Part shown: positions 1 through 7,012 of the stretch, piece after piece
Layout of the letters: each line of letters opens with the position of its first letter
Position numbering within the stretch: position 1 is the stretch's first letter
From: a virus
Lineage: Duplodnaviria; Heunggongvirae; Uroviricota; Caudoviricetes
Reading direction: 5' to 3' (one strand)
IMG/VR virus record: IMGVR_UViG_3300029249_000159
DNA: 8,321 bases
The notes under the pieces: model-generated
The model's input: the letters and a program-made list of their open reading frames with translations, nothing else
Database searches by the model: none
Told to the model about the DNA's origin: nothing
Translations under genes and position numbers: made by a program

Positions 1-821
1 TGTGTCTTTACCCAGCGTGTGTATTTCTCATTTACCCAGCGGCGACGTTTAGGTCGTTTCATGAAGGATTCCGGAGACTCCGGATCAACGGTAATGCTGA
101 CCACCGCCTTTTCCTGTGCTGGGTTCTGTGGCTGGTGGGTGTGAAGCAACGGCGCAAGATTTTTTGTGCGCTGCTTCAGTATGCTGGTGGCGGTCTGCTC
201 TCCCGGTACGATGTCGCTTTCGCGGTACAAGGAGCGGATTTTTTCCGCACGCAACCCCAGTGAACGACGTAATACAGCTTCCGGTAGCGCGTCCGCCACC
301 TGATTGCGGACCGCCCACCAGGATAATTCAGCCAGAGATAATTCCCGCTCCTGTGTGCCATTCATTGCATGGCGTATGACGTCAATCATCCATGCTGACA
401 GGTTTTGATGAGCAAGTTGCCCGAGTGATTCAGAGGTCTGGTCACGCAGCTGGTTGTCGCAGTGCCAGCACAACACCATCGCGCCGGTACCGTAACGATG
501 TATGACGGTTTCACTGTGATGATAGTCACCATGAGGCCACTGGCAGGATTTGACATGACGCAACAGCCAGTCAGACAGTGCACCAGCGCCGCCAGCAGCA
601 CGAATCACCCGCTCATCGCTGAAAAATGGCAGTAATGATTTATCCTCCGCCAGCGGCTGGCGAACGGCAGGAACGACTCCGGACGGCAGACCGCGCATGC
701 TTTTTGGTTCCGGCTCCACCAGCACTCGAGGGTTATGAAATACCTGCATGGATTCACGGCCCGGCTTAAGGACCACCAGCCCAAGTTCCGGTACCGGAAC
801 AGGTCGAAGTAATACCCGCAC
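1..821 (-). CDS. Hypothetical prophage protein, 3'-partial (continues past left window edge)
   Basis: My own translation of the minus strand shows one frame open from the stop at 897-899 down to position 1 (about 300 codons), reading ...VRVLLRPVPVPELGLVVLKPGRESMQVFHNPRVLVEPEPKSMRGLPSGVVPAVRQPLAEDKSLLPFFSDERVIRAAGGAGALSDWLLRHVKSCQWPHGDYHHSETVIHRYGTGAMVLCWHCDNQ...MKRPKRRRWVNEKYTRWVKT. Likely start is GTG 819-821, 4 nt after a GGAGG (826-830); alternative ATG at 747-749. Absent from the ORF track only because it has no in-window stop. Track ORFs 85..318, 176..361 and 386..601 are out-of-frame shadows of it. Confidence 0.6.
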   Translation of the reverse strand, partial: MRVLLRPVPVPELGLVVLKPGRESMQVFHNPRVLVEPEPKSMRGLPSGVVPAVRQPLAEDKSLLPFFSDERVIRAAGGAGALSDWLLRHVKSCQWPHGDYHHSETVIHRYGTGAMVLCWHCDNQLRDQTSESLGQLAHQNLSAWMIDVIRHAMNGTQERELSLAELSWWAVRNQVADALPEAVLRRSLGLRAEKIRSLYRESDIVPGEQTATSILKQRTKNLAPLLHTHQPQNPAQEKAVVSITVDPESPESFMKRPKRRRWVNEKYTRWVKT

Positions 822-822
822 G

Positions 823-1101
823 TTACCTCCAGATGCGTTGCTGGAATGTGCGGGACGGACGCGGTGGGCGTTCGGAATAAGGGAGCCTGACGTAGATTAT
901 CCAGTGACGATAATCGAGGCTGAGGGCTTTCCTAAACTCATACCCACGCCTGCGGTAGTTCTGAATCAGCCATTCGGCCTGTTCTTCAGTGCATGGGTCA
1001 TGCTGGTACCAGTCATATTTGAATGCATGAGAACGCCGCCCGTGCCTGCTGGCAAAGACGGCTGAATTATCAGAATTGTGTGGTCTGGAATTTTGCGCCA
1101 T
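823..1101 (-). CDS. Hypothetical prophage protein (92 aa)
   Basis: ATG at 1099-1101 preceded by GGAG about 7 nt upstream on the minus strand; protein-like composition (…FKYDWYQHDPCTEEQAEWLIQNYRRRGYEF…). Its TAA stop (823-825) lies inside the GGAGG that precedes the GTG of the downstream long ORF, a typical translational-coupling layout. No family recognised. Confidence 0.5.
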   Translation of the reverse strand: MAQNSRPHNSDNSAVFASRHGRRSHAFKYDWYQHDPCTEEQAEWLIQNYRRRGYEFRKALSLDYRHWIIYVRLPYSERPPRPSRTFQQRIWR

Positions 1102-1167
1102 CGGTTTTCTCCGGTGGCACAGTGTTACTCAACAGGGGTTCAGCCCTGTGCTGAATTGTAGATGAAT

Positions 1168-1428
1168 TTACTCATCTTCAAAAGCAGAAAAACCAGCCTT
1201 AAGCCCAGCTTCTTTCAGAGACTGCAATGATGTGACAAATTCATTTTCACGCAAAATAAAACCATCTGTCACAAGTTCATCCACAAAATAAATTAACGCA
1301 GCACCACTCTTCCTTTGTTTAGATTGTAAACATTTAATACGGCAGTGACTGACAATAGCACCATTCTCAACGCGCACAGTATAGAGGCCATCTTCAGTAA
1401 AAATTTCACGTAATTCTTCGATTTTCAT
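1168..1428 (-). CDS. Hypothetical prophage protein (86 aa)
   Basis: Track ORF 1168..1431 begins at a TTG; the adjacent in-frame ATG at 1426-1428 is preceded by GGAAGGA about 8 nt upstream, giving MKIEELREIFTEDGLYTVRVENG.... Sits directly downstream of the hok terminator. Function unknown. Confidence 0.55.
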   Translation of the reverse strand: MKIEELREIFTEDGLYTVRVENGAIVSHCRIKCLQSKQRKSGAALIYFVDELVTDGFILRENEFVTSLQSLKEAGLKAGFSAFEDE

Positions 1429-1510
1429 CAACAGAATCCTTCCAGATAAATAGCACTCCCCTGTTCGGGGTCCATCCCTCTTATCCCTGCGCGCTACTTA
1501 AGTATTTTTG

Positions 1511-1540
1511 ATTCTATTCCGGCACCGCCCAGAACTTCAA
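1511..1540 (-). promoter_or_regulatory. Candidate sigma70 promoter for the 86-aa/92-aa/long-ORF operon
   Basis: On the minus strand: -35 TTGAAG (complement of 1535-1540), 18-bp spacer, -10 TAGAAT (complement of 1511-1516), just downstream of the hok terminator and about 80 nt upstream of the ATG at 1428. Hexamer match only. Confidence 0.3.
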
Positions 1541-1547
1541 ACGCGTT

Positions 1548-1580
1548 GAAAATAAAAACAAAAACCCGCCGAAGCGGGTT
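1548..1580 (-). terminator. Rho-independent terminator downstream of hok
   Basis: 7-bp GC-rich stem (1563-1569 aacccgc pairing with 1574-1580 gcgggtt, loop cgaa) followed on the minus strand by TTTTGTTTTTATTTT (complement of 1548-1562). Confidence 0.65.
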
Positions 1581-1619
1581 AAGTGCGGGTGCGTTGAGGA
1601 TGCCTGCCACATCAGAGGT

Positions 1620-1641
1620 GGCGAGGGATTTCTCCCTCGCC
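1620..1641 (-). other. Stable hairpin in the hok 3' UTR
   Basis: Perfect 9-bp inverted repeat ggcgaggga / tccctcgcc with a 4-nt loop, 8 nt after the hok stop; no U-tract follows, so it is more likely a 3' stabilising stem than a terminator. Confidence 0.4.
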
Positions 1642-1648
1642 GGGTCTC

Positions 1649-1804
1649 TTACTCCTCAGGTTCGTAAGCTGTGAAGACAGCGACCTCCGTCTGGCCGGTT
1701 CGGATTCGTACCTCGCAGAGGTCTTTCCTCGTTACCAGTGCCGTCACTATGACGGTTAAACAGATGACGATCAGGGCGATTAACATCGCCTTTTGCTGCT
1801 TCAT
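1649..1804 (-). CDS. hokD: Hok/Gef family membrane toxin (51 aa), HokD/RelF-like
   Basis: Translation MKQQKAMLIALIVICLTVIVTALVTRKDLCEVRIRTGQTEVAVFTAYEPEE has the Hok/Gef signature (N-terminal hydrophobic helix, TRKxLCE, GxTEVA, AYE) and matches my recollection of E. coli RelF/HokD. ATG at 1802-1804 with AGGAG 9 nt upstream (complement of 1814-1818). The track ORF 1649..1843 is a TTG-initiated 5' extension of the same frame. Confidence 0.85.
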   Translation of the reverse strand: MKQQKAMLIALIVICLTVIVTALVTRKDLCEVRIRTGQTEVAVFTAYEPEE

Positions 1805-1817
1805 AGCCTGCTTCTCC

Positions 1818-2965
1818 TGTGTAAGTTCACAGAGATATTGCAATTGCCTCCGGATAAGTAAGGGGAGATTGCACTATGCAAATGCAGCATCTGATGGTTG
1901 GCTATCCTAAGTACTACCAAACGGCCGATTATGCGTTGAGGCTTTCAGTGATGGCTGATATAGCAACAATGAGAATGAAGGCTCTGCACTTCTGGGATAA
2001 ACACGGTATTTCTGCAGCTTCTGAAGCCTTTGGCGTGTCCTGCCGCACGCTTTACTGGTGGCGTCAGTTACTGAACAAGGAAGGACCTGAGGGGCTAATC
2101 CCGCACAGTAAGGCACCTCTGGTGCGACGAAAAAAACACTGGCATCCCGATGTGCTGAAAGAGATTCGACGCCTCAGGACAGAGCTGCCGAACCTCGGTA
2201 AAGAGCAGATTTTTGTTCGCCTGAAGCCCTGGTGCGAACAGCGCTATCTGGCCTGTCCGAGTGTTTCCACCATCGGCAGAATGATCGCTGCCGCACATGA
2301 TAAAATGCGGATGATACCTGTGCGTCTGGGATCGCGGGGGAAGGCACTGCTTGTCAAAAAGCGGTCTGCCAAACCCCGCAGGCCAAAGCACTACCGCCCG
2401 GTAAAGACAGGTGAGCTCATTGGGATGGACGCCATTGAGCTCAGAATGGGCGAACTGCGTCGCTATGTCATCACCATGATCGACGAATGCAGCAATTACG
2501 CGCTGGCGCTGGCTGTGCCGTCACTCAACAGTGATATCGTCAATCACTTCTTCAGCCGCGCAGCCCGGTTGTTCCCGGTCGGTATCAGCCAGATAATCAC
2601 AGATAACGGAAAAGAGTTCCTGGGAAACTTCGACAAAACGCTGCAGGAAGCCGCTATCAAACACCTCTGGACCTATCCCTACACGCCAAAAATGAACGCT
2701 ATCTGTGAACGTTTTAACCGGACGTTAAGAGAGCAGTTTATTGAATTTAATGAGATTTTACTCTTTGAAGATCTGGCGCTATTTAACCAGAAGCTGGCGG
2801 AATATCTGGTGCTGTATAACAGCAAAAGACCCCACAAGGCGCTCGCACTAATGACGCCCGTGGAATATATTTTAAAAGAGAATAAAAATTGCAATATGTG
2901 GTGGACCCATACATCTCCTTGCCTTTCGGCACGTAAGAGGCTAACCTACATGTGTCTAGCATGAA
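1818..2965 (+). mobile_element. Putative IS481-family-like insertion sequence (ends not resolved)
   Basis: Single-ORF transposase with N-terminal HTH and DDE core. A TGTGTAAGTTCACAG motif at 1818 resembles the TGT-initiated terminal repeats of IS481-type elements and a ...CTAACCTACA end lies at 2941-2950, but I could not find a convincing matching inverted repeat or target duplication by eye. Boundaries are approximate. Confidence 0.4.
1876..2964 (+). CDS. DDE transposase / integrase catalytic (rve) domain protein, IS481-family-like (362 aa)
   Basis: ATG start; N-terminal helix-turn-helix-like region (GISAASEAFGVSCRTLYWWRQ); candidate catalytic triad in rve-type spacing: D in IGMDAIE, D in ITDNGKEF, E in NAICERFNRTLREQF, followed by the conserved K/R-rich segment YNSKRPHKAL. 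Single ORF rather than the two-frame IS3 arrangement. Confidence 0.75.
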   Translation: MQMQHLMVGYPKYYQTADYALRLSVMADIATMRMKALHFWDKHGISAASEAFGVSCRTLYWWRQLLNKEGPEGLIPHSKAPLVRRKKHWHPDVLKEIRRLRTELPNLGKEQIFVRLKPWCEQRYLACPSVSTIGRMIAAAHDKMRMIPVRLGSRGKALLVKKRSAKPRRPKHYRPVKTGELIGMDAIELRMGELRRYVITMIDECSNYALALAVPSLNSDIVNHFFSRAARLFPVGISQIITDNGKEFLGNFDKTLQEAAIKHLWTYPYTPKMNAICERFNRTLREQFIEFNEILLFEDLALFNQKLAEYLVLYNSKRPHKALALMTPVEYILKENKNCNMWWTHTSPCLSARKRLTYMCLA

Positions 2966-3487
2966 ATTGGCCTCAGATTAATGTTAAGCGTCTTGCAGGA
3001 CGCGTAATGTTAACTGGGGCTTTTCTCTATCTGCCGTTGGTGTTCATGCCTGAGGCAGATAGCCTCAAGCACCCGCAGCCATTCTACTTAACTCCCGTTA
3101 CCTCGCCAATATGAAATCAGTCAGAAAGGCGATCCATAAGAACAATAGCAAGACAATAAATCGCCATTACAGCCGTAATAGCCAGCGCACATTTGAGAAC
3201 CAGCACCACAACCTCCTGTATTGGATGTACACCAGTCCTGATGAATATGAGGCTGTCTCGTCAGTGATTCAATGCAACTATTGGGTATAGTTTCTCTGAT
3301 TTTTTCTGTGGAAATGGGGCTCAACCACTAGTCACCACCAGCACTTCTTTTAATACGCAAAGTCCGACACAAGCTAACCTTCTAGTCCGCTTTGAGCGAA
3401 AAGCAGGAGTTCATAGTTTATTACCCCTGTACTGCCTCTGCTTAGGTGGTCATATCCAGTGTGCCATTATCCTGTTAGGGCTCACTA

Positions 3488-4075
3488 TTAATCATTAGTC
3501 AAATGGAATTCTGTGAGTTTTGCAACGTTTCGTTGTATTTCGAACCATGGGTATTCGCTCGATGGTGCGGCCAAGAATGGTACTATTTGTAATCGTATGG
3601 TTGGCCAACATTCTTGTCCGTTATCGAGGCGGTCGAGAAGAGCTTGATCGATTACCCATACTCCCACCGGAACATTTTCTTCTTTCAACTGATTGAAGAT
3701 TACTTCTGCGTTCTGTATGCCACCTCCATTGCCCTCAAAACTCATGCGGCCTCGCGGGAAAACATACCATTCCCCTGTGATTTGAGATTCCAGAACCAAG
3801 CTAGGGAGCCGATAGTACGTTGATGGTTGCTCCTCTATCAAAACAGATATTTTGGGTTCTTTCACAACCTTTAGCAATTTGTCCAAATCACTCCATACGT
3901 CGAATGTCTTGAATTTTTTTGGCAAATTTGCACTTAGCGAGAATTTGTCTGGTTCTTCAATCACATCTGGTATAACTTCATTCATTTGAGCTGAGGTGCC
4001 CTTCGGTTTTGAGAAATCAAGTCTGTTTGCAAGAAGTCCGGCTAAGATACTAAGGCCGAAATCATCCAGTCCCAT
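3488..4075 (-). CDS. Orphan hypothetical protein (195 aa) on a cargo segment
   Basis: ATG at 4073-4075 with GAGGAG about 10 nt upstream; 195 codons with no recognisable motif (MGLDDFGLSILAGLLANRLDFSKPK...). Hand counts of sample stretches give about 41% GC here versus about 49% in the flanking replication genes; flanking intergenic DNA also looks AT-rich by eye. Confidence 0.6.
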   Translation of the reverse strand: MGLDDFGLSILAGLLANRLDFSKPKGTSAQMNEVIPDVIEEPDKFSLSANLPKKFKTFDVWSDLDKLLKVVKEPKISVLIEEQPSTYYRLPSLVLESQITGEWYVFPRGRMSFEGNGGGIQNAEVIFNQLKEENVPVGVWVIDQALLDRLDNGQECWPTIRLQIVPFLAAPSSEYPWFEIQRNVAKLTEFHLTND

Positions 4076-4114
4076 TATGTTAAAACTCCTCGTTGGTGCT
4101 TATGCATGCTCTAA

Positions 4115-4143
4115 ACACTATGATGCCATGTGGTAACAGTCAA
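4115..4143 (-). promoter_or_regulatory. Candidate promoter for the 195-aa ORF
   Basis: Minus strand: -35 TTGACT (complement of 4138-4143), 17-bp spacer, weak -10 TAGTGT (complement of 4115-4120), about 40 nt upstream of the ATG at 4075. Hexamer match only. Confidence 0.2.
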
Positions 4144-4348
4144 AGTTGTGAGTTATTCCCTAATTTATTGATGTTGAGCAGCTTGCAGTGATGCACTGAA
4201 TTTAAGAACCAAGTAGATATATTAGACGTCTGCTCCTGGTACAAAGCGGACAACCACGCCAGATCTACCCTGTGCCATGAAAAATGAGAATGTCAATTCA
4301 CTCCTGAACTAATGCTTTTTAATCTAGTAACGTCTAAAATACCTAACA

Positions 4349-4750
4349 TTATCCCTGATAAAATGCCAGTATGCGCTGCATAACTTCACTCTTCCGGCAC
4401 TCGCGACAGATTATGTTCAGACGACTGTCGTAGCGACGTATTTCTCCGTCAGGTAATGACCAGATAAGGTCCGGATCAACCACAGCAGGTTTCTTCACCT
4501 TTGCCCTCGAGAGTTTTTTGCGGGCGTTTTGCCAGTCCTTACGCGCCTGTTCAGACGGGAATACCCCGTAGCCGGAGTTGTATACATCGCCACTGGCTAC
4601 CAGCTCTCTGGCAAGAACGCTCATCAGATATCTAGTCGCACCTGTTTTAGCTTCCAGTTGCCGTAACGTCTCACGACCGCTCTGGCGCACGAGTTCCACC
4701 ACCTGCCCTTTAATTTTTTCCCGCTCTTCTTGTGTAAAAACTTTTGCCAC
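4349..4750 (-). CDS. Hypothetical phage early protein (133 aa), downstream of replication initiator
   Basis: GTG start at 4748-4750 preceded by AAGGGGGA about 4-5 nt upstream; begins MAKVFTQEEREKIKGQVVELV...; located about 40 nt after the stop of the O-like gene, at the position a helicase loader would occupy but too short to be one. No family recognised. Confidence 0.5.
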   Translation of the reverse strand: MAKVFTQEEREKIKGQVVELVRQSGRETLRQLEAKTGATRYLMSVLARELVASGDVYNSGYGVFPSEQARKDWQNARKKLSRAKVKKPAVVDPDLIWSLPDGEIRRYDSRLNIICRECRKSEVMQRILAFYQG

Positions 4751-4790
4751 AAGTCCCCCTTAAAATTACCTCATGACCTGAAATCAACAC

Positions 4791-5756
4791 TTATCCCCTG
4801 AAACCAGGCGGAATTTCTGTATCCGGTTCAGAAATATGATTCACACAACGCTGTACAGGTGAACGTCCCAGGCGGATGACCAGTTCGTCCCATTTTTCGC
4901 GGAGTTTTGACGGGCTCATGATGTTTTTTACCCAGAATGGATCCCGCTGTACCCGACCAAACATTTCGCAAATTTGTCTGTGGCTTCTGCCATCCAGCAT
5001 CCGCATTGTGCGCACGTCATTGGCCCAGGCTGTCCAGTTAGGCTCTTTTGGTCGCATGATCTCTCCATCGTCGCTGGCAGCCTGTTCGTAAAGGTTCACG
5101 ATCCGCCCCCAAATCCACTGCGCACACGCCAAATCCTCCCTGCTACCCCACTGGCGTTTTTTCACACTAAACACAACCGCGTCGGGGTTCCGGGTTAAAA
5201 AATCCTGTTCAGTCGTCTGCGGGTCCGGTTGCGAAGCTTCCGGACGAAAAGTGTTTTTATTCTCTGTAGTAATCTCTGTTGTATTCTCTGTAAGATCATC
5301 AGGCCATTTTGACCCGATGACATTGGGTCGTTTTGAACCAATGGAGCGTTTCATTTTGACCTCTTCCATCGTGTCATTTTGACCTGATGGAGCGGCGCAT
5401 TTTGAACCGATGGATTCGTTCAATTTGCCACCATCTAAAAGCTCGCTCCCATAGTTGATCGTGTAGAAATTGGTCATATCGCGCTTTGATTTATTGAGCT
5501 TTTCACAACGCAAAAGCCCCAGCGTTTTCAGACTTGCAAACGCGCGCTTTAACGTTGACTCTGACCAGAATGGGAACTGTTCCAGCCATTGTTCCGTTGT
5601 GTTATAAATCCAGCGAACACCATCACATTCCATACCGGAGTTGGTATCTCTCAACCAGTAGTGCAGTTGTTGCAAAACAATGGCTTCGTTTAAGCCGATT
5701 TTCATTGCCAGCTGCGTGTTTATAACCAGTGGGCGTTCAGCAAAAAGAAGACTCAT
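4791..5756 (-). CDS. Phage replication initiator, lambda O-like / replisome-organiser family
   Basis: N-terminal winged-helix-like segment typical of phage replication initiators (LNEAIVLQQLHYWLRDTN...GVRWIYNTTEQWLEQFPFWSESTLKRAFASLKTLGLLR); central low-complexity linker (SIGSK repeats) that is encoded by a DNA iteron array, as in lambda O. Start assigned to ATG 5754-5756 (MSLLFAERPLV...), which overlaps the upstream gene by 20 nt; track start 5810 is a TTG, and ATG 5703-5705 is an alternative. Confidence 0.7.
   Translation of the reverse strand: MSLLFAERPLVINTQLAMKIGLNEAIVLQQLHYWLRDTNSGMECDGVRWIYNTTEQWLEQFPFWSESTLKRAFASLKTLGLLRCEKLNKSKRDMTNFYTINYGSELLDGGKLNESIGSKCAAPSGQNDTMEEVKMKRSIGSKRPNVIGSKWPDDLTENTTEITTENKNTFRPEASQPDPQTTEQDFLTRNPDAVVFSVKKRQWGSREDLACAQWIWGRIVNLYEQAASDDGEIMRPKEPNWTAWANDVRTMRMLDGRSHRQICEMFGRVQRDPFWVKNIMSPSKLREKWDELVIRLGRSPVQRCVNHISEPDTEIPPGFRG
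5305..5442. repeat. Iteron array (candidate prophage replication origin) inside the O-like gene
   Basis: Five to six tandem direct repeats with 23-24-bp periodicity, consensus about tCATTTTGAcCnGATGGAgcg, starting at 5306, 5330, 5353, 5376, 5399 and a degenerate copy at 5422. An AT-rich tract with TCTCTGT repeats (about 5250-5300) lies immediately 3' in the initiator's coding direction, mirroring the iterons-plus-AT-rich layout of ori lambda. Confidence 0.7.
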
Positions 5757-6258
5757 AATTCCATCCAGCTTTTTGTTGGTATTGCTGTCGATACGCAAGC
5801 TTGAAAGCAATTGCTTTTTCTATAAGTTCGTCAGTTTCACGATCTACAACGGCAGGATCTGCAAAAAGTAGTCCGGATTCCACCACATCGCCATATTCTT
5901 TATTTAACCCGGCGATCATGTACGTAATACTTTTTCCATCACTGATCTCACGATACAACCTGAAATCACTAATCCGGATAGCCTTCATAATTGCAGGCAC
6001 TAGCGCTGTGAACTTTTCACGCTTATCCCTAGTGTCGATAGCCTTCCAGCGTTCGAATATCTTCACTCGATTAACGCTAAGCGCTCGCTGATCAACCGCG
6101 CCACCTTCATATGTGACACGCTGAACATCGATGTTCGGGCGCTCTTTCAAAGCCCAGAATGCTTCAGTGATTAATATCGTCGCCTGCTCCTGTGTCATTC
6201 CTGGTCGACATATCCAGGCATCCAGAGCCTCACGAGCCTGTTCAGGAGTGATTTTCAT
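5737..6258 (-). CDS. Hypothetical early regulatory protein at the cII/YdaT position (173 aa)
   Basis: ATG at 6256-6258; immediately downstream of the cro-like gene (17-nt overlap) and upstream of the replication initiator, the position occupied by cII in lambda and YdaT in Rac. Assignment is positional only. Confidence 0.45.
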   Translation of the reverse strand: MKITPEQAREALDAWICRPGMTQEQATILITEAFWALKERPNIDVQRVTYEGGAVDQRALSVNRVKIFERWKAIDTRDKREKFTALVPAIMKAIRISDFRLYREISDGKSITYMIAGLNKEYGDVVESGLLFADPAVVDRETDELIEKAIAFKLAYRQQYQQKAGWNYESSFC

Positions 6259-6469
6259 TGTTCAACCGCCCCGCCCGCTTCGTCTTACGATATTCGTCAT
6301 AAACTTTGGGATCATACTGAAGCTCCCCGCCAGATGCCTCCTGTAGACGCATCGCGCGACCTTCAGGAACCAGTATCCCCCAAGCAGCAACACTTGCCAG
6401 TCTCACTCCTGCGGCATTGGCAAGCTTTGTTTTGCTGCCAAAAAAAGTAATTGCGTCAGCTTTAAGCAT
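6242..6469 (-). CDS. dicC: Cro-like regulator, DicC-like (75 aa)
   Basis: Divergent from the dicA-like repressor across an 80-bp operator-bearing intergenic region. ATG at 6467-6469 (track start 6472 is a TTG) with GAGGGGG 5 nt upstream. Sequence MLKADAITFFGSKTKLANAAGVRLASVAAWG... looks like a helix-turn-helix Cro/YdaS-type protein; the DicC name is by synteny and partial recollection. Confidence 0.65.
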   Translation of the reverse strand: MLKADAITFFGSKTKLANAAGVRLASVAAWGILVPEGRAMRLQEASGGELQYDPKVYDEYRKTKRAGRLNNENHS

Positions 6470-6482
6470 CAAAGCCCCCTCT

Positions 6483-6500
6483 TGTTAGACTTTTCTAACA
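6483..6500. promoter_or_regulatory. Operator palindrome in the dicC-dicA intergenic region
   Basis: TGTTAGA-cttt-TCTAACA near-perfect inverted repeat; the same half-site recurs downstream of dicA at 6993-7012. It overlaps the predicted -10/transcription start region of the dicC promoter. Confidence 0.55.
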
Positions 6501-6527
6501 TTATTGTGCGCGGGATACCTAAGTCAA
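6500..6527 (-). promoter_or_regulatory. Candidate dicC (cro-like) promoter
   Basis: Minus strand: -35 TTGACT (complement of 6522-6527), 16-bp spacer, -10 AATAAT (complement of 6500-6505); the predicted start falls inside the operator palindrome. Confidence 0.4.
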
Positions 6528-6549
6528 GAAAAATTAGAATTACCTAACT

Positions 6550-6957
6550 ATGGATACAAGAACCCTAGGCCAGCGAGTTCTGGCGCGACGAAAAGAATTA
6601 CGCTTAACACAACGAGAAGCTGCGCGCCTCGCTGGAGTTGCTCACGTCACAATTTCACAATGGGAAAGAGACGAAACCCAGCCAGTCGGAAAACGATTGT
6701 TTGCTTTAGCGGATGCTCTGAAGTGCTCACCTACATGGCTAATGTTTGGTGACGAAGACAAGGCACCAGTGCCGGCACAAGAACTTCATGTGGAAACAGA
6801 GCTAACTCCCAACCACAAAGAATTGATCGAATTATTCGATGCTCTTCCATCTTCCGAGCAGGAAGCCTTGCTGTCTGAAATGCGCGCAAGAGTAGAAAAC
6901 TTCAACAAACTCTTCGAAGAAATGCTTAAAGCGCGTAAAAATAAATCAATAAAATAA
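6550..6957 (+). CDS. dicA: HTH XRE-family repressor, DicA-like (135 aa)
   Basis: ATG at 6550; N-terminal HTH (LRLTQREAARLAGVAHVTISQWERDETQP) and a C-terminal tail (SSEQEALLSEMRARVENFNKLFEEMLKAR) that closely resemble my recollection of E. coli DicA, same length. A TAGAAT hexamer sits only 9 nt upstream of the ATG, so the transcript may be leaderless like lambda cI from PRM (inference). Confidence 0.85.
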   Translation: MDTRTLGQRVLARRKELRLTQREAARLAGVAHVTISQWERDETQPVGKRLFALADALKCSPTWLMFGDEDKAPVPAQELHVETELTPNHKELIELFDALPSSEQEALLSEMRARVENFNKLFEEMLKARKNKSIK

Positions 6958-6992
6958 CATTCTTTTCAAGTGATTAGTTGCGCCCACTCTTT

Positions 6993-7012
6993 TTGTTAGA
7001 TCAATCTAACAA
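6993..7012. promoter_or_regulatory. Operator palindrome upstream of the ydfA-dicF operon
   Basis: Perfect inverted repeat TTGTTAGA-tcaa-TCTAACAA, the same half-site as the intergenic operator at 6483-6500. A degenerate third copy (TGTTAGG-ttat-TCTAAAT) at 7030-7047 lies within the spacer of the candidate promoter. Confidence 0.55.

What the first reader, a model, noticed from the sequence alone, without database searches (positions are those of the whole stretch)
5240..5442. Iteron array plus AT-rich tract inside the O-like gene: candidate prophage origin
Five to six 23-bp direct repeats (consensus about CATTTTGACCnGATGGAgcg) sit in the linker-coding part of the replication initiator gene and are followed by an AT-rich tract with short TCTCTGT repeats. 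This is the architecture of ori lambda embedded in gene O and suggests the prophage keeps a potentially functional origin, unlike the replication-deleted Qin of K-12.
Basis: partly seen in the sequence, partly recalled or inferred. Interest (0 to 1): 0.5.

Follow-up and report, generated by a model that had tools for sequence, protein, structure and literature searches.

The report
Prophage replication origin inside initiator gene
The repeats are real and are very probably the replication origin of a Qin-like lambdoid prophage, lying inside its own initiator gene as in phage lambda; this arrangement is expected, but the second half of the origin is a 12-base repeat that stays almost unchanged in phages of very distant bacteria.

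Summary
Observation confirmed. Six 23-bp units lie at 23/24-bp spacing (5297-5435). Each is an imperfect palindrome, CATCrGGTCAAAATGACCyGATG on the gene strand. Next to them are three 12-mers, TACAGAGAnTAC on the gene strand (5258-5293), at 30% GC, the least stable duplex in the gene. All of this lies in the part of a 321-aa O-like gene (4791-5756, minus strand) that encodes a disordered linker between two folded domains.

The units fall in all three reading frames. In diverged homologues the same positions carry 23-nt-phased dyad repeats whose core changes symmetrically (GGTCA..TGACC, GGACA..TGTCC, GGGCA..TGCCC). They are followed by the same 12-mers, which use invariant synonymous codons (ACA 149/149, GAG 145/149). 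The constraint is therefore on the DNA, not the peptide.

- The N-terminal domain is not the lambda O family.
- There is no P-like loader gene.
- The "AT-rich tract" is a conserved 12-mer array.

Origin function is inferred, not shown. This is an ordinary kind of element and an uncharacterised family member.

The parts
4791..5756 (-). O-like replication initiator gene (321 aa, ATG at 5756, stop at 4791-4793). N-terminal domain aa 1-107, disordered linker aa 108-175, C-terminal domain aa 180-297.
   Evidence: ORF and translation. phrog_391 'replication initiation O-like', E 1.9e-92. No Pfam family. AlphaFold2 domain and linker pattern. C-terminal domain 37% identical to lambda O aa 170-294.
5413..5435 (.). 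Iteron 1, first in gene direction and degenerate. Gene strand GATGGTGGCAAATTGAACGAATC.
   Evidence: In 23-nt register with the others. Corresponds to a better-conserved copy in Klebsiella and mEp460 homologues.
5390..5412 (.). Iteron 2. Gene strand CATCGGTTCAAAATGCGCCGCTC.
5367..5389 (.). Iteron 3. Gene strand CATCAGGTCAAAATGACACGATG (16 of 23 self-complementary).
5344..5366 (.). Iteron 4, outer arms degenerate. Gene strand GAAGAGGTCAAAATGAAACGCTC.
5321..5343 (.). Iteron 5. Gene strand CATTGGTTCAAAACGACCCAATG.
5297..5319 (.). Iteron 6, next to the 12-mers. Gene strand CATCGGGTCAAAATGGCCTGATG.
5258..5293 (.). Three tandem 12-mers (gene strand TACAGAGAATAC / AACAGAGATTAC / TACAGAGAATAA). Candidate DNA-unwinding or loading element.
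   Evidence: TRF and the repeat finder. Lowest duplex stability in the gene and 30% GC. Conserved in homologues with invariant synonymous codons. Exact two-unit pattern in at least 120 viral contigs. Only 1 variable site of 36 among 53 close variants.
4794..4856 (-). Codons for the C-terminal tail ..VQRCVNHISEPDTEIPPGFRG, which resembles the C-terminus of host DnaT. Possible hook for host helicase-loading machinery.
   Evidence: phmmer against PDB entries 2ru8, 6aep and 9zbt. Weak NCBIfam DnaT match. Tail present in 4 of 4 initiators without a loader gene next door and absent in 4 of 4 with one.
6500..6527 (-). pR-like promoter upstream of the cro-like gene. Transcription from it would run through cro, the cII/YdaT-like gene, the O-like gene and the origin.
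   Evidence: Only sigma-70 consensus match in 4300-7000 (10 of 12 positions). Gene order. Function inferred.
4349..4750 (-). DUF977 / Ren-like / 'LygF' gene directly downstream of the initiator gene, where lambda has P and then ren.
   Evidence: Pfam DUF977 E 1.6e-28. phrog_142.

Best explanation
This is the vegetative (theta-type) replication origin of a Qin-like lambdoid prophage, embedded in the linker-coding part of its own initiator gene.

Proposed mechanism:
1. Dimers of the initiator's N-terminal winged-helix domain bind the five to six 23-bp dyad iterons. Each iteron is an inverted repeat converging on an A-tract, phased every 23 bp.
2. The resulting nucleoprotein complex destabilises the adjacent three 12-mers (ACAGAGAnTAC, 30% GC). 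Their sequence is itself recognised, most likely as single-stranded or distorted DNA by a conserved part of the initiator.
3. The C-terminal domain is lambda-O-like and ends in a DnaT-like tail. It brings in the host helicase machinery, because the phage encodes no P/DnaC-type loader.
4. Transcription from the cro-side promoter passes through the site, as in lambda.

Shown here: the anatomy, the DNA-level constraint, the co-variation of iteron and protein, and the conservation of the 12-mers.

Inferred: binding, melting, helicase recruitment, and activity in this particular prophage.
For: Anatomy and chance.

The repeats are constrained as DNA, not as peptide:
- The six units occupy reading phases 2, 2, 0, 1, 2, 0 and encode different peptides: IGSK, SGQND, EEVKM.
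- Among 53 unique close variants, divergence per site is 0.086 at third codon positions of the N-terminal domain, 0.018 in the iteron array and 0.006 in the 12-mers, although these encode a disordered linker.

Conservation in homologues:
- 23/24-nt-spaced repeats directly follow the N-terminal-domain coding part in most of about 80 loci from Enterobacterales, Pseudomonas, Xenorhabdus, Campylobacterales, Desulfuromonas and Lactobacillales, and in Staphylococcus phage 96.
- The core motif GNCAWWWTGNC is 17 times denser there than in the rest of the genes.
- Its two variable bases are complementary (T/A, G/C or A/T) in 119 of 183 sites, as expected for a dimer site.
- The variable base tracks residue 67, at the start of the predicted recognition helix: Ser 19/24, Asp 15/15, Lys 4/4.

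12-mers:
- Anchored on the peptide (TE..TE), Thr is ACA in 149/149 cases (background 24%) and Glu is GAG in 145/149 (background 47%). The next codon is A-N-T while its amino acid varies among N, I, T and S.
- The exact two-unit pattern occurs in at least 120 viral contigs, always mid-ORF. It appears in initiator-like genes of at least three N-terminal sequence families, each preceded by its own 23-nt-phased repeats.

Module boundary: nucleotide similarity to Klebsiella phages stops at 5261, the outer edge of the 12-mers.

Support from known systems:
- The lambda control behaves the same way.
- The definition of ori-lambda is from PMC7466680.
- RepA_N iterons are described as semi-palindromes converging on a poly-A tract (PMC7145576).
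- The best fold match of the N-terminal domain is a staphylococcal RepA-DNA complex.

Viable relatives: the same module occurs in the phage genome records PhiR42_1, mEp460_ev081 and HannyBb.
Against: - There is no experimental evidence for binding, melting or origin activity in this family in the literature I could search.
- The N-terminal domain matches no curated family. The fold match is weak: Foldseek E 0.012, and model pLDDT about 70 for that domain.
- Two of the six units are degenerate.
- The residue-67 co-variation is not corrected for phylogeny.
- Many Bacillus and Neobacillus homologues show neither clear iterons nor 12-mers, so the grammar is not universal in the family.
- The partner of the DnaT-like tail is unknown. 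The 2026 preprimosome paper does not assign a role to those residues.
Confidence: 0.8

Rival explanations
1. The repeats are only a by-product of a repetitive peptide (a low-complexity linker such as IGSK / TENTTE) and have no role as DNA.
For: The region encodes a disordered linker. The peptides IGSK and TE(N/I)TTE do recur.
Against: - The 23-nt units fall in all three reading phases and encode unrelated peptides.
- Synonymous positions in the 12-mers are invariant, while the residue encoded by the A-N-T codon changes freely.
- All codon positions in the region are more conserved than third positions of the folded domain.
- The iteron core changes symmetrically, as a palindrome would.
Confidence: 0.02
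2. The iterons are initiator-binding sites used for regulation only (autorepression, copy control, or exclusion of related phages). The true start site of replication lies elsewhere in the prophage.
For: In iteron plasmids and in lambda, extra copies of initiator sites also act as inhibitors (titles and abstracts of PMC3349717 and PMC4488673). Nothing here measures where synthesis starts.
Against: The sites sit next to the least stable duplex of the gene. The arrangement has the same order as ori-lambda and lies in the same intragenic position. No second repeat cluster exists in the window. Less stable AT-rich stretches elsewhere in the window carry no repeats.
Confidence: 0.07
3. The 12-mer array is kept mainly as a recombination 'linker' at the junction between exchangeable modules (N-terminal domain plus iterons versus C-terminal domain), not as an unwinding element. 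This is compatible with the iterons being the origin.
For: Similarity to Klebsiella phages ends exactly at the 12-mers. Stx-phage O genes, which share no other BLAST similarity, share a 40-nt island of 97.5% identity there. The same N-terminal domain is joined to at least four different C-terminal domains.
Against: - The motif is kept in phages of Pseudomonas, Staphylococcus and Lactobacillus, where exchange with coliphages is unlikely.
- It is tandem with a strict 12-nt period and variable copy number (2-5).
- It always lies on the same side of the iterons and is the melting-prone spot.
Confidence: 0.12
4. The element is of the origin type but is a dead relic in this prophage, as expected for a defective Qin-like element.
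For: The prophage carries an IS481-family insertion nearby. Qin-type elements are often defective; K-12 Qin lost the whole region.
Against: The initiator ORF is intact and 98.8% identical to that of phage PhiR42_1. The ori DNA differs from close relatives at very few positions. The promoter-cro-cII-O operon is contiguous.
Confidence: 0.15

Closest known systems
ori-lambda in gene O of phage lambda, and the six-iteron origins of Stx phages 933W and P27
   Same: Several dyad-symmetric initiator sites at about 20-24-bp spacing with an A-rich centre (lambda ATCCCTCAAAACGAGGGA). They are followed, in the direction of transcription, by an easily melted purine-rich tract. Everything lies inside the linker-coding middle of the initiator gene, downstream of a cro-side promoter. 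[quoted passage not shown]
   Different: The N-terminal DNA-binding domain is not Phage_rep_O. The iteron sequence differs and the units are 23 bp rather than 19 bp. Lambda has an anonymous AT-rich tract where this element has a conserved ACAGAGAnTAC 12-mer array. There is no P gene. The protein ends in a DnaT-like tail.
RepA_N-type replicons (staphylococcal plasmids pSK41 and pTZ2162; Vibrio PLE RepA)
   Same: [quoted passage not shown] The initiator has a DNA-binding winged-helix N-terminal domain plus an exchangeable, host-specific C-terminal domain. From my own knowledge (Weaver et al. 2009, Plasmid 61:94), the origin lies in the central part of the rep gene. The best structural match of the modelled N-terminal domain is 4pql/5kbj.
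   Different: There is no sequence match to Pfam RepA_N. The fold match is weak. The context here is a lambdoid phage early operon, not a plasmid. I am not aware of 12-mer arrays being described for RepA_N origins.
Iteron plasmids with sequence-specific unwinding elements (RK2 TrfA, F RepE, pPS10 RepA)
   Same: Iterons lie next to repeated 13-mers in the unwinding element, and the Rep protein binds those repeats on one strand as ssDNA (abstracts of PMC4081077 and PMC10602881). This is the best precedent for a conserved repeat within the melted region.
   Different: The initiator families are unrelated. Those origins are intergenic, use DnaA boxes, and have different repeat sequences. DnaA boxes are not enriched here.
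Phage 'replisome organiser' genes with internal origins (SPP1 G38P/oriL; lactococcal TP901-1 and Tuc2009). Cited from my own knowledge, not checked here.
   Same: The origin repeats are embedded in the initiator gene of a temperate or virulent siphophage. A helicase loader or helicase gene often lies downstream, as in the Staphylococcus phage 96 and Lactobacillus mv4 homologues found here.
   Different: Whether those proteins share this N-terminal domain or the 12-mers was not tested.

Membership tests
Lambda-type origin (ori inside gene O) | Four or more repeated, dyad-symmetric initiator sites in the middle of the initiator gene | tested here: met
   Six units at 23/24-bp spacing, 5297-5435, inside ORF 4791-5756. 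16 of 23 self-complementary positions in the good copies.
Lambda-type origin (ori inside gene O) | AT-rich, easily unwound tract adjoining the iterons on the promoter-distal side | tested here: met
   5250-5296 is 29.8% GC. 5254-5299 is the least stable duplex in the gene. Same order as in lambda.
Lambda-type origin (ori inside gene O) | Initiator N-terminal domain of the Phage_rep_O family (PF04492) | tested here: not met
   No Pfam hit for the window protein at E 0.01 or for its N-terminal domain at E 1. Lambda O scores 5.7e-36 in the same scan.
Lambda-type origin (ori inside gene O) | Initiator C-terminal domain homologous to that of lambda O | tested here: met
   tblastn: aa 170-294, 36.8% identity, E 2e-17 to lambda O.
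Lambda-type origin (ori inside gene O) | P-type (or DnaC/DnaB-type) helicase loader gene next to the initiator gene | tested here: not met
   The downstream genes are DUF977 and an unassigned 195-aa ORF. The same arrangement occurs in PhiR42_1, mEp460 and SfII.
Lambda-type origin (ori inside gene O) | Initiator binds the iterons and the fragment replicates in an initiator-dependent way | not testable with these tools
   Needs EMSA or footprinting and a conditional-replicon assay.
RepA_N replicons | [quoted passage not shown] | tested here: met
   CATCrGGTC-AAAA-TGACCyGATG. Position weight matrix from 63 sites. Definition quoted from PMC7145576.
RepA_N replicons | N-terminal domain matches Pfam RepA_N (PF06970) | tested here: not met
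   No match in the window protein or in eight homologues, even at E 1.
RepA_N replicons | N-terminal domain has the RepA_N / DnaD-N winged-helix fold | tested here: inconclusive
   Foldseek top hits 4pql_B and 5kbj_H: E 0.012-0.016, TM (target) 0.55, 101 columns. DnaD-N 2v79 is lower in the list. Model pLDDT for this domain is only 56-76.
PHROG 391 'replication initiation O-like' | Full-length profile match | tested here: met
   E 1.9e-92, aa 17-321 on profile positions 11-298 of 298.
Coding tandem repeat (peptide repeat) | Repeat period a multiple of three, with copies encoding the same peptide | tested here: not met
   For the iterons, the period is 23/24 nt, the phases are 2, 2, 0, 1, 2, 0, and the peptides differ. 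The 12-mers are in frame, but their synonymous sites are frozen.

The most novel reading that the evidence does not exclude
The window may hold one example of an origin 'grammar' that has not been described. It would be shared by a large superfamily of phage and prophage initiators across Proteobacteria and Firmicutes. The grammar has two parts: lineage-specific dyad iterons locked to a 23-bp phase, and an almost invariant ACAGAGAnTAC 12-mer array. The array would act as a sequence-specific melting or helicase-entry element, read by a conserved feature of the initiator or by a universal host factor. In the loader-less branch, which includes this prophage, the initiator would carry a copy of the DnaT C-terminal tail and use it to recruit the host's replication-restart or helicase-loading machinery in place of a P protein.
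Probability: 0.3. Interest if true: 0.65.

Novelty: new member of a known kind. Interest (0 to 1): 0.38.

Why it matters
For this prophage, it means the replication module (initiator plus origin) that K-12 Qin has lost is intact. The element could therefore amplify after induction and could be turned into an initiator-dependent replicon.

More generally, the family gives a clean natural experiment in initiator-origin co-evolution. One residue at the start of the recognition helix tracks one symmetric base pair of the site.

The family also points to a short, phylum-spanning 12-mer that is conserved at synonymous sites. If that 12-mer is the place where the duplex opens or the helicase enters, it would be a simple and widely applicable marker for finding phage origins in sequence data. 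It would also offer a way to study how initiators without a dedicated loader recruit the host helicase.

Tried and rejected
- A viral-contig scan with the N-terminal-domain alignment returned only near-identical E. coli loci, which were useless for co-variation. I replaced it with the one-genome-per-species collection.
- My first codon test was circular, because it selected sites by the DNA motif. I redid it anchored on the peptide.
- Pfam and NCBIfam give no family for the N-terminal domain.
- The PDB sequence search matched only the last 21 residues, to DnaT.
- The fold search gave only weak winged-helix matches.
- DnaA boxes (TTWTNCACA): two matches, not above chance. DnaA-dependent opening was therefore not pursued.
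- Rfam finds nothing in the region, so an RNA element is not indicated.
- BLASTP between the window initiator and the Stx2_14040 O protein aligns only the 12-mer-encoded peptide. I therefore do not claim that their N-terminal domains are homologous.
- Six literature searches found no description of this family's origin or of the 12-mer. The library holds open-access papers only, so absence is weak evidence.
- I read the 2026 preprimosome paper to learn what the DnaT tail binds. It does not say.
Full report
CONTEXT

The window is part of a Qin-like lambdoid prophage of Escherichia coli. In a complete chromosome the same DNA lies between ynfU/cspB and rspB. The gene order in the window is:
- DicA/cI-like repressor, 6550-6957 (+)
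- DicC/Cro-like, 6242-6472 (-)
- YdaT/cII-like, 5737-6258 (-)
- a 321-aa 'replication initiation O-like' protein, 4791-5756 (-)
- a DUF977/Ren-like gene, 4349-4750 (-)

The 1.2 kb around the finding is present at 80% coverage or more in 1733 of 5426 complete E. coli genomes. It is 96-98% identical, over its whole length, to the phage genome records PhiR42_1, mEp460_ev081 and HannyBb.

K-12 Qin aligns with window 1-1820 and 5979-6562 but has nothing corresponding to 1821-5978.

THE OBSERVATION

The iterons:
- Six 23-nt units start at 5297, 5321, 5344, 5367, 5390 and 5413 on the + strand.
- Tandem Repeats Finder sees only 3.7 of them, because two are degenerate.
- A 15-nt core pattern allowing three mismatches hits five times in 5305-5412 and once elsewhere. 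Shuffles give 0.97 expected hits, and none of 200 shuffles reaches six.
- Read on the gene strand, the good copies are imperfect palindromes, CATCrGGTCAAAATGACCyGATG.

The 12-mers:
- Downstream in gene direction lie three 12-mers at 5258-5293, gene strand TACAGAGAnTAC.
- The tract is 30% GC and is the least stable 46-bp duplex in the gene.

Position in the protein: an AlphaFold2 model built from 18 homologues folds aa 9-107 and 180-297 and leaves aa 108-175 disordered, at pLDDT 24-40. That disordered stretch is the segment these repeats encode.

DNA ELEMENT OR PEPTIDE REPEAT?

Three results point to a DNA element.
- A 23-nt period is not a multiple of three, so the six units sit in reading phases 2, 2, 0, 1, 2, 0 and encode different peptides.
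- Among 53 unique close variants (91-100% identity), per-site divergence is 0.086 at third codon positions of the folded N-terminal domain. It is 0.018 in the iteron array and 0.006 in the 12-mers, where 1 of 36 sites varies. A disordered linker under peptide-level selection alone would not be the most conserved DNA in the gene.
- I located the 12-mers through the peptide only, as TE dipeptides repeated at 4-aa spacing (48 of 82 non-redundant homologues, 149 dipeptides). Thr is ACA in 149/149 cases against 24% elsewhere. Glu is GAG in 145/149 against 47%. The following codon is A-N-T while its amino acid varies among N, I, T and S.

The constraint is therefore on the nucleotides.

COMPARATIVE EVIDENCE

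tblastn shows that the protein is modular.
- Its C-terminal domain is 37% identical to that of lambda O (E 2e-17).
- Its N-terminal domain is shared, at 73% to about 45% identity, with proteins of Klebsiella, Hafnia, Pseudomonas, Staphylococcus and Lactobacillus phages that have other C-terminal domains: Phg_2220_C, DnaB_2, or the DnaT DNA-binding domain.

In these phages, and in about 80 loci from one-genome-per-species contigs, the DNA just after the N-terminal-domain coding part usually carries 3-6 repeats at 23/24-nt spacing. These are followed by 2-5 CAGAGA motifs at 12-nt spacing. Lambda, run as a control, yields its four known iterons.

The iteron core differs between lineages, and it changes symmetrically:
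- GGTCAAAATGACC in E. coli, Klebsiella, Citrobacter and Xenorhabdus
- GGACAAATTGTCC in Hafnia and Mixta
- GGGCAATTTGCCC in Pantoea and Pseudomonas

The motif GNCAWWWTGNC is 17-fold enriched in the linker DNA. Its two variable bases are complementary (T/A, G/C or A/T) in 119 of 183 sites.

The variable base co-varies with residue 67, at the start of the predicted helix 66-78: Ser with T (19/24), Asp with G (15/15), Lys with A (4/4). This is the top column by mutual information. Phylogeny was not controlled, so I treat it as a lead. It is nonetheless what a recognition contact would look like.

THE 12-MER ARRAY

This array turned out to be the more unusual part.
- Nucleotide similarity to Klebsiella phages ends at its outer edge, 5261.
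- An Stx2a phage 'O' gene shares a 40-nt island of 97.5% identity exactly there. That gene's protein aligns with the window protein only over the 12-mer-encoded peptide, and it has different iterons.
- In all of them the motif, read in the ACA-GAG frame, lies in the middle of an ORF, with a median of 159 aa upstream and 149 aa downstream.
- 74 have the window's N-terminal domain, 19 have the Stx2_14040 type, and about 17 have a third type ('LLSEIVYWYRP'). A few are of other types.
- The 170 nt upstream of the motif hold lineage-specific 11-mers repeated on average 4.7 times (window type) or 3.8 times (Stx type). Control DNA from the same genes gives about 1.8. Of about 310 spacings, 218 are exactly 23 nt and 39 are 24 nt.

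The general layout is therefore variable iterons on a fixed 23-nt phase, followed by an almost invariant 12-mer array. Many Bacillus and Neobacillus homologues lack both features.

MECHANISM

By analogy with lambda (PMC7466680) and with RepA_N replicons, I propose the following. RepA_N iterons are described as semi-palindromes converging on a poly-A tract (PMC7145576).
1. Dimers of the N-terminal winged-helix domain occupy the iterons.
2. The assembly opens the adjacent 12-mers.
3. The C-terminal domain recruits the helicase.

The conservation of the 12-mer sequence, not just of its AT content, suggests that something reads it. The precedent is Rep proteins of iteron plasmids, which bind one strand of the 13-mers in their unwinding element (PMC4081077). 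A pR-like promoter at 6527-6500 would send transcription through the site.

These steps are inferred. None was tested.

HELICASE RECRUITMENT

There is no P, DnaC or DnaB-type gene after the initiator gene in the window, or in PhiR42_1, mEp460 or SfII.

The protein ends in ..RCVNHISEPDTEIPPGFRG. This nearly copies the C-terminus of E. coli DnaT..RDVNTVSEPDSQIPPGFRG.

A tail of the form xP(P/A)GFR(G/S/N) is present in four of four initiators with no loader gene next door. It is absent in four of four that have one: lambda, Stx2_14040, Staphylococcus phage 96 and Lactobacillus mv4. The mv4 protein instead ends in DDDLPF, which is like an SSB tail.

The sample is small, and the partner of the DnaT tail is not stated in the preprimosome paper I read. 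This remains a hypothesis.

COMPARISON WITH KNOWN SYSTEMS, AND NOVELTY

The kind of element, an iteron-plus-unwinding-element origin embedded in the initiator gene, is textbook. It is what a specialist would expect in a lambdoid early operon.

The element works like ori-lambda but fails two lambda membership tests: it has no Phage_rep_O N-terminal domain and no P gene. It resembles RepA_N origins in iteron design, and weakly in fold (Foldseek E 0.012), but it has no RepA_N sequence match.

I therefore file it as a new, uncharacterised member of a known kind. I found no description of this family's origin or of the 12-mer array in the searchable open-access literature. That is only weak evidence that none exists.

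VERDICT

- Confidence that this is the origin of the replication module is about 0.8.
- Interest is moderate to low for the finding as stated. The conserved 12-mer grammar and the DnaT-like tail raise it somewhat.

Noticed in passing
window 4794-4856 (- strand), last 21 codons of the O-like gene: The C-terminal tail ..VNHISEPDTEIPPGFRG nearly copies the C-terminus of host DnaT (..VNTVSEPDSQIPPGFRG). Similar xP(P/A)GFR tails occur in 4 of 4 related initiators with no helicase-loader gene downstream and in 0 of 4 with one.
   Followed up: partly
L009 1992-2867 (Lactobacillus phage mv4 ORF292): This homologue ends in DDDLPF, which resembles the SSB C-terminal tail (DDDIPF). Different branches of the family appear to carry different short host-mimicking tails.
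   Followed up: no
L010 1983-2849 (Xanthomonas phage HXX_Dennis): The same N-terminal domain is fused to a Pfam 'DnaT DNA-binding domain' (PF17948, E 1.5e-13).
   Followed up: no
window codon 67 of the O-like gene (about 5556-5558); loci L092-L171: Residue 67 (Ser, Asp or Lys) tracks the symmetric variable base of the iteron (T, G or A): 19/24, 15/15 and 4/4. It is the top mutual-information column. Phylogeny was not controlled.
   Followed up: partly
L174 1094-1987 (Stx2a phage Stx2_14040 'O' gene); viral loci from L175 on (120 loci): The ACAGAGAnTAC array also sits mid-gene in initiator-like ORFs of at least two other N-terminal sequence families. Each is preceded by its own 23-nt-phased repeats.
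   Followed up: yes
window about 1819-2913 (transposase ORF 1876-2964, + strand): An IS481-family element is inserted with a 6-bp duplication relative to an uninterrupted relative (L001 4177-4182). It separates the hokD coding sequence (about 1649-1805, -) from the Rfam sok / hok-leader match at 2908-3074 (-).
   Followed up: partly
window 3488-4075 (- strand): This 195-aa ORF between the DUF977 gene and the IS has no match in Pfam, PHROGs or NCBIfam. In another strain the same position holds Drt2 and RipA defence genes, so this may be a variable cargo slot.
   Followed up: no
record NZ_CP090612.1 (L172): The only plasmid-labelled record among the three 100%-identical matches is a 420-kb 'plasmid pDCE7-1' that carries this prophage region. 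The other two 100% matches (H2, H3) are chromosomes, and nearly all matches overall are chromosomal: 7645 places against 17 on plasmids.
   Followed up: no
L006 2627-2790 (Shigella phage SfII initiator gene): SfII has the same lambda-O-like C-terminal domain and DnaT-like tail as the window, but an HTH_36 N-terminal domain. Its repeats differ (six 15-nt units, TCAAAATCTGACCCG) and it has no ACAGAGA 12-mers. The 12-mers therefore travel with the N-terminal domain and iteron module, not with the C-terminal domain.
   Followed up: partly
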